From assembly GCA_951406725.2 (NCBI GenBank), contig OX597820.1, positions 17,174,001-17,238,000 of the forward strand: a stretch of 64,000 nucleotides of DNA, given 5' to 3'. Each line of letters begins with the position of its first letter. Within the stretch, counting starts at the first letter, position 1. The translations under genes were made by a program, and so were the position numbers. Source of the stretch: Octopus vulgaris. Its lineage: Eukaryota. The notes under the pieces were generated by a model that did not search any database, was not told the DNA's origin, and saw only the letters and a list, made by a program, of their open reading frames with translations. Shown piece by piece: positions 795 to 62,660 of the stretch.

Positions 795-960
795 TATACA
801 TATAGTTGAAAAATATAGACAAAAGACGAAGAGAGGTGTATGAACTACAAGCAAGTGCATTGGTTTGGCGTTGGGGAAAATTTTTTAAATATTTTACGTT
901 TCGAGTCTATGCTCTTCAACAGAAAGGGATAAGAGAAAATAAACAGAGAGAAAATGGCGA
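795..960 (-). mobile_element. Short HHR-bearing non-autonomous element, family E
   Basis: Minus strand reads ctttCTGTTGA-a-gagcatagactc-GAAA-cg-TA (core 899-922). Similar to 19975-20150 and 62495-62660. Flanked by TA-rich repeats. Confidence 0.6.
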
Positions 961-1172
961 ATTATTTTATATATATATATATTATATATATATATATATA
1001 TATATATATATATATATATATATATATATATATATATATATATACAAAAAGCAATAAAGATTCAAGTTAATTTAAATGAATTTACTTGAATATGGTACCT
1101 AACTTAGATGCACCAAAAAAACTATACTGTTTTAACAATATAATAACAGTACAGTATTTTAGCAATACAGTA

Positions 1173-1263
1173 TTTTAGCTGATGAGTACAGGACACGTTT
1201 ATATGCTGTAATTTTTGCAACTTTTAATAAAGCCTGTCCTTGTATGAAACGATTGTACTAAAA
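1173..1263 (+). ncRNA. Type I hammerhead ribozyme in a short element (~1045-1295) between (TA)n tracts
   Basis: Stem I TTTTAG(1173-78)/CTAAAA(1258-63); CTGATGA 1179-85; stem II gtacaggaca/tgtccttgtat; GAAA 1246-49; short stem III cgattg; UH = TA 1256-57. Confidence 0.75.
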
Positions 1264-1397
1264 ACCTATCCATTCTTGTTGCTTCTTTCTCGCGTATATA
1301 TATATATATATATATACGATGTATGTGTGTGTTTGTGCGCGCTGAAAAGCTTAGGTCTTGTGCTTATAGTAGAGAGGTTTATTTTAATTAGACTTAA

Positions 1398-1570
1398 ACC
1401 AGCGAGCTAGCAGAATCGTTAGCAGTTCGGACGTAATGCTTAGTGGCATTTCGTTCATCTTTACGTTCTGAGTTCAAATTTCGCTGAGGCCCGTTTTGCC
1501 GTTCGTCTTTTCAGGCTCCGTGAAATAATTACCAATAAAATTTGCGGCCCTTGAGCCAAAATTAGAAAAG
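1398..1570 (+). mobile_element. tRNA-derived SINE, family B (Nin-like domain), decayed
   Basis: gcgagctagcagaatcgttagc...ctgagttcaaatt head shared with many copies in the window. Confidence 0.7.
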
Positions 1571-3049
1571 TATATTATGGACAGACTGAATGGTTAACAA
1601 TTGGAATTGTTTCAAATCCCTCGCCCCATCTATCGATGTTGCTCTGTGTTATATATTTTATGTGTACTAAACCCTGTGCCATTGTTCAAAGACACCAGTT
1701 TCGAAATAGGACGTAGAGATCAGGAACATGCCAAAGACGTCACTCTAAGGATATCGCACACTACACAGCTTGTGGTGGTTACGTGCACATCCATTCGGTC
1801 ATAGAATAATAAAAAGATTGGCTTGGTTATTTTAGTTTTACCTCATGCTATTTCAATTCTGCTAGTCAAGGGACGTTTAAAATCAGTACCGGAATCGATT
1901 TTTTTCCTTGTGGTATCTGGTTACCACCGTGTAAGATTTAAAAAAAATATGATTGTGTTTTTCTTGAATGCATTCCTCTCATCTTGCGCACATACGAACC
2001 GATGTATTTTCGGCGGTTCTTTAAACTTATTTATTCAATTAACCAGGTTTTCCTCATTGAGAGCAAGACAATTATTTTTTAAATATAGTTTTGTAATTAA
2101 CTGATTTCTCGATACTAGTTTACAGAACTGATTAGAATGGACAATGCTAAACTCGATTGTCAACAGAAGAACTTAAAGAATGTTGTTGTTGCAATTGTGG
2201 TCGTTAGCACTGGATAATCGTTGATTTGGGAGATCTACAATAAAAAATATGTGAGCCATGATCATCTGACTTCGTAGAATCACGTAGGCAACAACTTTTT
2301 GAATTATCCCTTTGTTTAAGATCGTAGCACATTATCTGAGTGACACTTAGTTATAATATGTAGAAAGCTGTGTCACCACCTAGAGAATCATCCTTTATTG
2401 GCTTCAAATACAGAATAAGTTTCTATATGACACCACTACAGTCGCTGAGTTTCTATTATGCCAGCGTTTTATATCATATATGATTTTCGAAGCAACACTT
2501 TTGTTCGGTACTTTATCCTTCAATAATTGCAATTTCGAGAGCAAAAACGAATATAAAGAATATTTTAAACAGGTTGAACTAATCAAAAATAAATTATATC
2601 AACATATAAGAACCAAACTCCTTAATAATGGTTTCAGTTTTGTAACTCACACTTACAAATTGTGTATTAACTTACAAGTTATCTATGTATTCTATCGAGA
2701 CTACCAAATACTAAATTGTCCAATTGTTAAAAACAAAATAGCAATTACCAAGTTATTTATCATTTTTATATGACATACTAGACGCTATAAAACATTCGGT
2801 TGTATAGAAACTGAAAATACTTTCGCAAATATTGGTCATTTTATTGACTGGAAAGGAAGGGCTATGAATTATATCTCCTGTGTTCAAATTATATATCGTG
2901 TTCGTAAAAAATTGAGCGCTTTGCGATGTTCGTTGCAGTTTGACCGAATCTCGGTGAAGTTTAAAGGGAGAACGTAAAAAGCAGAAACAAATACCACAAG
3001 GTATTTTGACCGGCGCTCGAACGACACTGCTTCTCCAACTAATAATTCT

Positions 3050-3250
3050 TTCTACTAAAATTACAAGGCCTTGAAATTTGGGGTATGGGTTAAGTGGATT
3101 ACATAGACCCCAGTGAAACACTGGTACTCAATTTATCGACCCTGAAAGAATCAAATGCAAAGTCGATCTCGGAGAAATTCGAACTCAGAACGTAGCGACG
3201 GGCGAAATGCCACTAAACATTTCTTTCAGCGTGCTAACGATTCTGCCAAT
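3050..3250 (-). mobile_element. SINE family B
   Basis: Reverse complement of the family B head and body (tcgaccc...aaagtcga...aactcagaacgtagcg...gctaacgattctgcca). Confidence 0.75.
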
Positions 3251-3263
3251 TAAGTCAAGATAT

Positions 3264-3690
3264 AAGCGCAGGCATGGCTATGTAGTTAAGAAACTCTCTT
3301 TGCAACCATGTTGCTTCGAGGTCAGTCCCACTGCACGGCATCTTGGGCAAATGTCTTCTACTATAGCCCCAAGCCGAGCAAAGAATCGTGATTAGATGTG
3401 GTAGACGGAAACTGAAGAAAGCTCGTTGTAGCTTTACAAATGCACACACACACTCACGCATATATATATGGGCGTGTGTGTGTGTGTGCGTGTGTGTGCG
3501 TGTGTGTGCGATTGTGTGTGCGTGTGTGTGTGTGTGTGTGTGTGTGTGTAGTAATCGGTGTTGGTGTGTTTCCATTTCCGTCACTTAGCGGTTCGGCAAA
3601 ACAGACCGATAAAATAAGTGCCAGGCTATAAAAGGAAATTAGTACTGGGGCCCGATTCATTCGACAAAATATTCTTGAAGGTGATGCCCC
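3264..3690 (+). mobile_element. tRNA-derived SINE, family A (CORE-like, internal microsatellite)
   Basis: gcgcaggcatggct...cagtcccactgc...ttgggcaaatgtcttctactatagcc...(GT)n...cttagcggttcggcaaa. Confidence 0.75.
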
Positions 3691-3884
3691 TGACGGAAAC
3701 AAGGGAAAAATTATATATATATTCCTGGCAGTCTTCCAGGTAATTTCCATCTACCGAATTAACTTCCAAGGTATCGGTCGCCTCAGGGCTATAGCAGGAG
3801 ACTCTTCCTCAAGGTGCCGTGTAGCGGAACCGAACCCGAAACCACACGGCTTGTAAAACGCATTTCTTAACCACCACAGTCATA

Positions 3885-60700: not shown

Positions 60701-60824
60701 GGAAAACAGGAAACCTGATGTCAAATATTTCATTCGATTATGTGACTGAATTTTGATTGGTGAACATCGAATGTAGACTGCACCACTTTCTTGATTCGTT
60801 CATTTCTATTGCTCTTTCATTTAC

Positions 60825-61200
60825 ATGGAAGCGCAATGACCAAGTGGTTAAAGTAGCGGACTCACGATCATAGGACCGCGGTTTCGATTCCCAGACTGGA
60901 CGTTGCGAGTGTTTATTGAGCGAAAACACCACGAGGCTCCGGCAGGGGTGGTGGTGAACCTTGTTGTATTCTTTGACCACAATATTCCCTCACTCTTTCT
61001 CCCTGTTTCTGATGTTTTTGTATTTCAAACGGCCAGCCTTGTCTCACTCTGCGTCACGCTGAATCTCCCCAAGAACTACGTTAAGGGTACACGTGTCTGT
61101 GAAGAGCTCAGCCACTTGCACGTTAATTTCACGAGCAGGCTGTTCCGTTGATCGGATCAACTGGAAACCTCATCGTCGAAACCGACGGAGTGCTACGACA
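60825..61200 (+). mobile_element. SINE family C
   Basis: atggaagcgcaatgaccaagtggtt..gtttcgattcccagac..accgacggagtgc. Confidence 0.8.
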
Positions 61201-61554
61201 TTTACATGATGCCACTTGGCTATTGTGGACATGTTGGAATGATTTCTCAATAGATAAGACAAGGGGTTATGAAACATTTTAGCAGAGCCATTCTAGAGTC
61301 GCTTATTTGGAGAAGCTGATTTGACCCCGACATATTTGACATGACATTTTTCTGCTACCCTTGTTTTAATGTTTCTCTCGCCCCTCCCTCCTCTCTCTCC
61401 CTTCCATTTTTCTCTCTCCCCTTCTCTCTTTTTCTCCCTCATGATATGCAAGTAAATATACGAGTATATATACATAAAACAAAACATATACATTTGCACA
61501 TGCTCTCATCACAAATACTTGCTCATGTACGCATATGCATGTACAACTACTCTT

Positions 61555-61652
61555 GAATTTTGTTGAAATTCCAATGAAGATCCTTGAATCTAGATTAAAA
61601 ACTGCCTCTTTTTCCATTGTCAAGGAATCTTGTAATATAATGAAATAATGAC
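61555..61652 (+). mobile_element. Isolated 3'UTR copy of the RLE LINE
   Basis: tgttgaaattccaatgaag..ccttgaatctag.tta..aatcttg matches 14195-14280. Confidence 0.65.
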
Positions 61653-61734
61653 ACACAAACACCCATGCGCGCACACACACACATGTATACATACCTATAT
61701 ATATATATATATATATATATATATATATATATAT

Positions 61735-62061
61735 AAAGACCCCCTTCGGTCATGAATGACCATGGGATTGCACCTAGAAAGTTACCCTCCTAGACACAAG
61801 TCCGGGCAAGGTTGTTTATGGAAGACCAGCAGTCGCCCATGCATACCAGCCTCCCCTCTCCACGCCACCGATGTTATCCAAGGGAAAGGCAAAGGGGCCG
61901 ATACAGCCTGGTACCTGTGACGTCGCAGCTCATTTCTACAGCTGAGTGAACTGGAGCAACGTGAAATAAAGTGCTTTGCTCAAGTACACAACACGCAGCC
62001 CGGTCCGGGATTCGAGCTCACAACCTCACGATCGTAAGCTCGACGCTCTAACCACTGAGCC
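61735..62061 (-). mobile_element. tRNA-derived SINE, well preserved
   Basis: Minus strand ggctcagtggttagagcgtc..gagctcgaatccc..tgtgtacttgagcaaagcac..cactcagctg; flanked by (TA)n. Confidence 0.8.
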
Positions 62062-62261
62062 ATATATATATATTACAACAAAAATGTAAATGTTGGACAT
62101 ATAGTTACCAAAGGTTTCGTATCCACAAGACAAAGTCAAAGCCTTGTGAACAGAGATAAAAAATAATATTTTCTACGTCGTGGACGTGAGGAAATGAAAC
62201 CTTTGGTAAATCTATGTCCGAAATTTAAATCTTTGCTGTTAATAATTACTGCTCTATTCTT

Positions 62262-62495
62262 TAGGGTGTGTTTTTTCTGATACATGTGTTATTGAGTGAC
62301 CGCGTGTGTACCGTTGGCAATTTTTTTTTCCAGCGTCTTCCTTTCTTTGGATCTTTCCTTTTCCTATGTTTCTGACGAAGAGCTCCGCTCGAAACGTTAA
62401 ATGCTCCTTCTTTCCTTCTTTCCTGAGCGTCCAATAATACTATACTTGTTGCACGTCCTTGCGTTGTTGTGTTTTCTCTTTGTGTTTTCATGTTT
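62262..62495 (+). mobile_element. Family F element with canonical minimal HHR
   Basis: ttt-CTGACGA(62372-78)-a-gagc tcc gctc-GAAA(62391-94)-cg-TT-aaa. Confidence 0.7.
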
Positions 62496-62660
62496 GAGCA
62501 TTTATAAAAAAATAAAAGACGAAGATGGGTGTGTAACAACAAACAGATGTATTAGTTTAATGCCCAGGAAGTGAGAAACTATTTTACGTTTCGAGCCTAC
62601 GCTGTTCAGCAGAAAGGCTCGCAGAAATAAACAGAGAGAAAAGAGATGACTTAAATGAAT
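62496..62660 (-). mobile_element. Family E element with minimal HHR
   Basis: Minus strand cttt-CTGCTGA(62612-06)-acagcgtaggctc-GAAA-cg-TA-aaa. Confidence 0.65.

What the first reader, a model, noticed from the sequence alone, without database searches (positions are those of the whole stretch)
795..62660. A community of sequence-distinct, non-coding, hammerhead-bearing mini-retroelements around one Penelope-like element
Seen in the sequence: about 15 type I hammerhead cores in 64 kb, from about seven unrelated short families plus the PLE itself (~900, 1179, 9668, 20025, 20313, 22373, 23282, 24126, 38094, 45418, 45907, 46895, 51294, 53772, 62372, 62606). All have a very short, mostly palindromic stem III (ACGT, ACCGGT, ACACGTGT, AAATTT) and lie near an element end, mostly next to (TA)n. 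Established: PLEs carry minimal HHRs in their pseudo-LTRs, and these are proposed to cleave as dimers through the palindromic stem III. Inference: these are non-autonomous PLE/retrozyme-like RNAs mobilised in trans by RT-GIY-YIG proteins, and repeat libraries would probably label them unknown. I cannot tell from here whether these families are already described.
Basis: partly seen in the sequence, partly recalled or inferred. Interest (0 to 1): 0.85.

Follow-up and report, generated by a model that had tools for sequence, protein, structure and literature searches.

The report
Penelope end-pieces, one with tRNA head
The hammerhead ribozyme motifs are real, but they are the leftover 3' ends of eight different protein-coding Penelope-like retrotransposons rather than separate mini-elements; the one unusual family carries a tRNA-like head where most of its short copies begin, which likely lets it spread like a SINE.

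Summary
All 16 listed sites carry a type I hammerhead (HHR) motif. Five pass a strict descriptor (0.03 expected in shuffles); the rest are family variants or decayed copies. They form eight families. Each was traced elsewhere in this genome to an RT/GIY-YIG Penelope-like (PLE) reading frame in cis. The window's PLE parents only two sites. Copy ends do not lie at the cleavage site. One family (22373, 51294) is unusual: 29 of 30 ORF ends are followed by a tRNA-like A/B-box head. Most copies are ~290 nt, start at that head, lack T4 runs and insert Penelope-style (inverted arm 23 of 30; tail on one arm only). Pol III transcription is inferred, not shown; short and ORF-linked copies did not separate into lineages. 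No RNA data could be obtained. The scan noted tRNA-bearing PLE-type repeats before in other genomes (unchecked); those notes describe them as lacking a ribozyme.

The parts
801..962 (-). Family A stub (HHR core at 922, A6U variant)
   Evidence: parent GIY-YIG end in L039/L047/L322
1045..1293 (+). Family B insertion: inverted tail piece 1045-1146 plus forward 3' end 1170-1293 with intact HHR at 1179
   Evidence: HHR lies ~1.47 kb behind an open GIY-YIG ORF in L415-L419
9529..9779 (.). Family C head-to-head inverted pair, HHR at 9668 (U3-A8)
   Evidence: parent GIY-YIG in L132/L147, shared ORF end in L138
19967..20146 (+). Family A stub, HHR at 20025
20193..20620 (-). Family D: ORF-start piece fused to pLTR (internally deleted form), decayed HHR at 20319
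22253..22471 (+). Family F body behind (AAT)n, no tRNA-like head, decayed HHR at 22373
23158..24300 (.). Family E (older subfamily) inverted pair, HHRs at 23288(-) and 24126(+), tail on the + arm
38005..41345 (-). Inverted 5'-truncated arm of the window PLE (family G): GIY-YIG frame 40184-41185, long 3' UTR, HHR variant at 38094, tail
41330..45498 (+). Forward arm of the window PLE (family G): RT frame 41330-43075, A-run frameshift near 43050, GIY-YIG, 3' UTR, HHR variant at 45418
45610..45990 (-). Family H stub, HHR at 45907
   Evidence: parent GIY-YIG in L188/L192/L199
46847..47015 (+). Family C stub with short inverted arm, decayed HHR at 46895
51087..51168 (+). Family F tRNA-like head with A box and B box (predicted Pol III internal promoter)
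51169..51390 (+). Family F (AAT/AAC)n linker and body (start of the parent ORF; HHR at 51294 with 3-nt stem III deletion)
53075..53905 (+). Family E stub: end of the PLE ORF, ~700-nt 3' UTR, intact HHR at 53772
62291..62497 (+). Family D stub, intact HHR at 62372
62499..62641 (-). Family A stub, HHR core at 62612

Best explanation
The 16 hammerheads are 3'-end (pseudo-LTR) pieces of eight different protein-coding Penelope-like retrotransposons of this genome, likely left when each element's RT-GIY-YIG protein nicked AT-rich DNA, began reverse transcription just downstream of the uncleaved hammerhead and copied only a short stretch. Shown: each family links in cis to a PLE ORF; inverted arms and one-sided tails are present; the HHR is internal to every copy. 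Inferred from Frangieh 2024: internal initiation at two sites that bracket the tail, on uncleaved RNA. In E, B and H the 5' ends are scattered (ordinary truncation). In A, C, D and F they pile up at one place, which most likely marks the RNA's 5' end, i.e. a start site inside the pLTR (inferred). In F that place is the start of a tRNA-like A/B-box module that sits ~35 nt behind the parent's stop codon, so F's ~290-nt copies are probably Pol III transcripts of the parent's pLTR, copied by the parent's protein (about 55% for this last step).
For: ORF links. E: 11 of 30 copies have an ORF upstream on the same strand. B: 5 of 6 loci show a GIY-YIG frame ~1.47 kb upstream of the HHR. H: L188/L192/L199. 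C: L132/L147/L138. A: L039/L047/L322 (recognised by GIY-YIG motifs, no tblastn hit). D: pLTR runs into an RT ORF in 4 of 30 loci. F: 29 of 30 ORF ends are followed by the head; RVT_1 hit; 550-aa open majority frame. G: RVT_1 and GIY-YIG. Insertion pattern: inverted partner F 23/30, C 20/30, B 17/30, E 12/30; F tail on one arm in 22 of 30 and never on both. 5' extents: E 242-1729, B 78-1445, H 156-1467 nt, against pile-ups in A (23 of 30 within 73-95 nt), C (21 of 30 within 23-37) and D (25 of 30 within 77-94). F: 17 of 26 head-bearing copies start at -17..0 and none of 30 reaches the ORF; none of 31 hits in 1.6 Mb not selected for F reaches it. The head is collinear with this genome's tRNAs (best tRNA-Arg, scores 61-64 vs shuffled maxima 44-49). 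No T4 run in F's 321-nt UTR/pLTR, against 3-14 in four other families.
Against: No RNA evidence for any start site or cleavage. The A and D queries were themselves short copies, which favours a pile-up among top hits; in unselected DNA D's pile-up held (13 hits at -5..+9) but at least 4 of the ~11 A copies reaching the boundary ran further upstream. A and D rarely have inverted partners (1/30, 2/30) and H none. D's pLTR was tied to the ORF start, not directly to a GIY-YIG end. A, C and D pile up without any tRNA head, so a sharp boundary alone does not indicate Pol III. A palindrome at F's boundary could cause fold-back instead. A and B boxes are barely better conserved than the rest of the head in ORF-selected copies (0.040 and 0.031 vs 0.054). 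ARAGORN and Rfam did not call the head a tRNA.
Confidence: 0.85

Rival explanations
1. The families are independent non-coding mini-retroelements (retrozyme-like) that replicate as hammerhead-cleaved or circular RNAs and borrow PLE proteins in trans.
For: Fixed 5' ends in A, C, D and F. D occurs as ~480-nt head-to-tail repeats in many of 30 upstream-selected loci. True tandem retrozymes exist in this genome (L211).
Against: All eight families join a PLE ORF in cis. Copy ends lie tens to hundreds of nt away from the cleavage site on both sides. D's extra 250 nt is the parent's ORF start, with junctions that vary from 463 to 717. Short and ORF-linked F copies share the same non-CpG variants and do not cluster (nearest neighbour same class 22 of 46, permutation p 0.67).
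Confidence: 0.08
2. [quoted passage not shown]
For: The parent itself carries the palindrome at the boundary. 23 of 30 copies have an inverted arm, often joined there. Palindromes at inverted junctions are described for rotifer PLEs (PMC3846280, passages). Box conservation is weak.
Against: Copies without an inverted head at the junction also start at -8..0. Both boxes and their spacing are kept. The unit has no T4 run.
Confidence: 0.3
3. The short A, C, D and F copies are cis by-products of the parent's own Pol II mRNA: transcription starts inside the upstream pLTR, and reverse transcription from the tail site of that same pLTR copies only start-site-to-tail.
For: D. virilis Penelope has an internal Inr/DPE promoter (PMC2377424, passages). 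A and D boundaries sit at a TCATTC motif that resembles an initiator (consensus recalled). F's body is the start of the parent ORF. No lineage split in F.
Against: No initiator-like match was evident at C's boundary. For F it leaves the tRNA-like boxes at the exact boundary unexplained.
Confidence: 0.15

Closest known systems
Minimal hammerheads in pLTRs of metazoan EN+ Penelope-like elements (Cervera & de la Pena 2014, PMC4209133)
   Same: Type I core, extra nucleotide at 9.1, palindromic stem III, U3-A8 variants, many unrelated families per genome, mostly single motifs from truncated PLEs, inverted pairs 100-700 bp apart.
   Different: Different host; A6U as a family trait was not seen in the parts read; no tRNA-like module is mentioned there.
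Poseidon PLE of Anolis (PAc; Frangieh et al. 2024, PMC11167929)
   Same: ORF start overlaps the HHR (family F); tail on one arm; AT-rich targets; copies contain the uncleaved HHR.
   Different: No Pol III-type head is described for PAc; the mechanism was shown in vitro there and is only inferred here.
Non-LTR retrozymes (Cervera & de la Pena 2020, PMC7229834; Li et al. 2026, bioRxiv 10.64898/2026.07.22.740005)
   Same: Non-coding HHR-bearing repeats related to pLTRs.
   Different: Retrozymes are tandem units with an HHR in each; the window's copies are monomers or inverted pairs tied to ORF-bearing parents.
Schistosome SINE-like hammerhead elements SM-alpha/Sj-alpha (as reviewed in PMC6765202)
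   Same: Pol III-type promoter followed by a hammerhead in a short repeat (family F).
   Different: They are described as often tandem and released by cleavage, with no parent element named in the passages read; F is dispersed, inserts with PLE geometry and is the pLTR of an identifiable coding PLE.
tRNA-derived SINEs (head-body-tail; LINE-dependent; general knowledge)
   Same: tRNA-like head with A/B boxes, ~290 nt, fixed 5' end, no internal T4, high copy number.
   Different: 3' end, inverted arms and one-sided tail are PLE-type; the head is also present in the autonomous element; no separate lineage was detected.

Membership tests
EN+ Penelope-like elements (3' stubs) | Contiguous with an ORF encoding RT and C-terminal GIY-YIG | tested here: met
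   All eight families; D via the ORF start, A by motif reading only
EN+ Penelope-like elements (3' stubs) | Type I minimal HHR in the pLTR | tested here: met
   G is an irregular variant
EN+ Penelope-like elements (3' stubs) | Inverted 5' partner and tail on one end | tested here: met
   F, C, B, E and window G; rare in A and D, absent in H
EN+ Penelope-like elements (3' stubs) | Clade (Poseidon, Neptune, Hydra) by RT phylogeny | not tested
   No tree with reference PLEs; any clade name rests on recalled motifs
Non-LTR retrozymes | Tandem units, each with a complete HHR | tested here: not met
   Window copies are monomers or inverted pairs; D repeats have variable junctions
Non-LTR retrozymes | Self-cleavage and circular RNA | not testable with these tools
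   No RNA data obtained
tRNA-derived SINE (family F) | tRNA-derived head with A and B boxes | tested here: met
   Collinear with genome tRNAs well above shuffles; not called by ARAGORN or Rfam
tRNA-derived SINE (family F) | Fixed 5' end at the head; no internal Pol III terminator | tested here: met
tRNA-derived SINE (family F) | Transcribed by Pol III | not testable with these tools
   Inferred only
tRNA-derived SINE (family F) | Lineage separate from its autonomous partner | tested here: not met
   25 ORF-linked vs 21 short copies share variants, no clustering; low power at ~4-5% divergence
tRNA-derived SINE (family F) | LINE-derived 3' tail | tested here: not met
   The 3' part is a PLE pLTR and ORF start

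The most novel reading that the evidence does not exclude
A coding Penelope-like element captured a tRNA-derived Pol III promoter into its pseudo-LTR, so that every pLTR makes a ~290-nt hammerhead-bearing RNA which the parent's protein inserts in trans: a Penelope-dependent SINE caught still attached to its parent, and a model for how schistosome-type hammerhead SINEs arise.
Probability: 0.45. Interest if true: 0.65.

Novelty: new variant of a known kind. Interest (0 to 1): 0.38.

Why it matters
As stated, the finding is ordinary: genomes full of unrelated minimal hammerheads from truncated PLEs have been known since 2014. Two by-products have value. First, family F joins a tRNA-like promoter, a hammerhead and a coding PLE in one traceable element. 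SINEs are normally tied to LINEs, so proof of Pol III transcription would give a PLE-dependent SINE with a known parent. Second, fixed-length solo pLTRs predict where PLE RNAs start, which is directly testable. Young families E and B, with near-identical copies, intact hammerheads and open frames, offer natural test cases for whether PLE hammerheads cleave in vivo.

Tried and rejected
1) Rfam scan of the window: the 150 displayed matches were microsatellite artefacts. 2) My first descriptor missed every site because it was too tight. 3) B linked to the PLE ORFs in L161/L162/L169/L170: wrong, those are neighbouring elements; the real link was found 1.47 kb upstream. 4) D as a fixed 480-nt retrozyme: rejected once the spacer proved to be the parent's ORF start with variable junctions. 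5) F as a separate tRNA SINE whose (AAT)n tail is merely targeted by a PLE stub: rejected; head and body travel together (26/30 body-selected, 27/30 head-selected) and the head follows the ORF (29/30). 6) The whole F element as a Pol III transcript: T4 runs looked scarce against base shuffles (p 0.036), but not against a codon-aware null (1 vs 1.97, p 0.36). 7) Core versus flank conservation: lower mismatch in cores for C, H and F (p<=0.003) but not significant for A and D (p 0.16, 0.28, 0.07); flank rates are inflated by alignment noise, so this is weak. 8) MFE folds of monomers and dimers gave stems I and II and, for B, E and G, pairing through stem III, but often alternative dimers; not used as evidence. 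9) A tree of F copies timed out and was replaced by a distance test. 10) Expression, RNA ends and cleavage remain unexamined.
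Full report
Setting. The window is G000:C7:17174001-17238000 in a 2.8-Gb genome. It is rich in (TA)n and other microsatellites; the host is probably an octopus (my inference from the repeat landscape, not from a call). I lettered the families: A (900, 20025, 62606), B (1179), C (9668, 46895), D (20313, 62372), E (23282, 24126, 53772), F (22373, 51294), G (38094, 45418), H (45907).

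Observation. All 16 sites carry a type I hammerhead motif. Five pass a strict descriptor, against 0.03 on average in 30 shuffles; a relaxed one adds 9668. The other ten are family variants or decayed copies. Majority sequences of the top 30 genome hits restore full cores, with A6U fixed in A (26 of 30) and U3 in C. In 800 kb sampled at fixed coordinates there were 18 strict hits, 7 from one tandem array, so the window is not exceptional. In 600 kb of that sample the profile hits were A 11, D 16, F 5, C 8, B 3, E 1, G 3, H 0 (A and D partly cross-match). F occupied 9 loci in 800 kb, roughly 30,000 loci genome-wide as a crude extrapolation.

What they are. I fetched 30 loci per family (top hits of 40 scored) and walked outward. 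E: 11 of 30 copies have an ORF upstream on the same strand, and the window copy at 53075 still holds its last codons. H: a same-strand GIY-YIG region upstream in L188, L192 and L199. C: the same GIY-YIG end upstream in L132, L147 and L138. A: a CA-rich UTR leads to a GIY-YIG end in L039, L047 and L322, read from motifs; tblastn with my small protein set gave no hit. D: the pLTR runs on into an RT reading frame in 4 of 30 loci; the apparent 480-nt repeat is pLTR plus ORF start fused to the 3' UTR at variable junctions. B: my first link was wrong; a further search showed an open GIY-YIG frame ending ~1.47 kb upstream of the HHR in 5 of 6 loci. G is the window's own PLE: RVT_1 and GIY-YIG, with a near-identical inverted arm and a tail on one side. 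F: see below. So each family has its own coding parent, and the window's PLE accounts for two sites only. This matches Cervera & de la Pena 2014 (parts 1-2 of 4 read): many unrelated minimal HHR families per genome, mostly single motifs from truncated PLEs. It also matches Craig 2021 (passages) on inverted arms, tails and (TA)n bias.

How it likely works. Frangieh 2024 (parts 1-2 of 4 read) showed for an Anolis PLE that the protein nicks AT-rich DNA, starts reverse transcription at two internal sites that bracket the tail, and does not need HHR cleavage; cleavage required the protein. The window fits: every copy contains the HHR internally and none starts or ends at the cleavage site. 5' ends are scattered in E, B and H but piled up in A, C and D and F. 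In DNA not selected for the family, the pile-up held for D (13 hits at -5..+9) and F, and was weaker for A. The simplest reading is that these boundaries are RNA 5' ends from a start site inside the pLTR; Penelope has such an internal promoter (PMC2377424, passages). This step is inferred.

Family F. Body-selected copies have a tRNA-like head upstream in 26 of 30; head-selected copies have the body downstream in 27 of 30 (two loci overlap the first set). The head has A and B boxes at tRNA spacing (box consensus recalled). It aligns end to end with this genome's tRNAs, best with tRNA-Arg (61-64 vs shuffled maxima 44-49; 10 tRNAs compared), but is too decayed for ARAGORN or Rfam. Searching with the ORF end, 29 of 30 copies continue into the head ~35 nt after the stop. 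The body is the ORF's start: an ATG opens a frame through the HHR and tail that continues into the PLE protein in L412. Yet 0 of 30 body-selected copies and 0 of 31 hits in 1.6 Mb reach the ORF, while 4 of 30 head-selected ones do. Seventeen of 26 start at -17..0 (starts beyond about -8 are partly artefacts of the inverted arm). The unit has no T4 run, never ends in (TA)n (0 of 30), has an inverted arm in 23 of 30, and carries the tail on one arm in 22 of 30, never on both. Against a true SINE lineage: 25 ORF-linked and 21 short copies share their non-CpG variants, including the 3-nt stem III deletion, and do not cluster (copies with large gaps and four duplicate or misoriented loci were dropped). 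A palindrome at the boundary offers a fold-back alternative, and box conservation is weak. I put Pol III-driven short transcripts at about 55%.

Comparison and novelty. Membership in EN+ PLE stubs is met; retrozyme membership is not; F works like a SINE in form but fails the separate-lineage and LINE-tail tests. The nearest precedent is the schistosome Pol III-plus-HHR elements (PMC6765202, passages). Li 2026 (parts 1-3 of 5 read) ties tandem retrozymes to pLTRs; Craig 2021 reports non-autonomous Chlamys; Arkhipova 2013 (passages) reports solo pLTRs and pLTR-driven mobilisation in trans. Nine searches of the held library (listings only unless stated) showed no paper describing a tRNA-headed pLTR. 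Subscription papers, Repbase and Dfam were not searchable; Lunse 2017 was not held (recalled, and seen as a citation only). Bonar 2026 (part 1 of 3 and passages) never mentions ribozymes but lists 893 unclassified SINE families; its library, which I did not examine, may contain F. Cervera 2020 was seen as passages only. Earlier notes of this scan (unchecked) report tRNA-bearing PLE-type repeats in other genomes, described as lacking a ribozyme, and one report of PLE end-pieces with minimal HHRs; none exists for this genome.

Verdict. One family is a new variant worth a promoter test. Interest 0.38.

Noticed in passing
L211:3082-4512 (+) and two copies on the - strand: A tandem repeat of ~359 nt with an intact canonical-looking type I hammerhead in each unit, with an inverted block: a textbook non-LTR retrozyme in this genome.
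   Followed up: no
L213, L216, L223, L245, L402-L404: Further hammerhead families not present in the window, including a U3-A8 family with 5-6 bp stem I.
   Followed up: no
L415, L418, L419:1-1540: The family B parent has a long Asn-rich insert between RT and GIY-YIG, like the N-rich inserts of rotifer Penelopes, and near-identical open copies.
   Followed up: partly
window 56436-56654 (-): A diverged fragment (71%) of the sequence that follows the E pLTR, i.e. the start of an E-type ORF.
   Followed up: no
   Followed up: no
window 19967-20620 and 62291-62641: A and D copies sit tail to tail at both places; no such pairing recurred in the fetched loci, so probably shared target preference.
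   Followed up: partly
L118, L262, L320: The (AAT)n linker of F appears to be an insertion site for another non-LTR element with a (TAA)n tail (Dong/R4-like, label recalled), separating head from body.
   Followed up: no
window 1402-1534, 2989-3430, 3893-4285, 5534-5935, 10348-10786, 16306-18528, 21429-21854, 35626-36644, 47776-48352, 58488-60715: Abundant SINE-like repeat families without hammerheads make up most other interspersed repeats.
   Followed up: no
family A copies, e.g. window 19971-19990: A very short ATG-initiated frame of four codons lies right after the 5' boundary in both A subfamilies.
   Followed up: no
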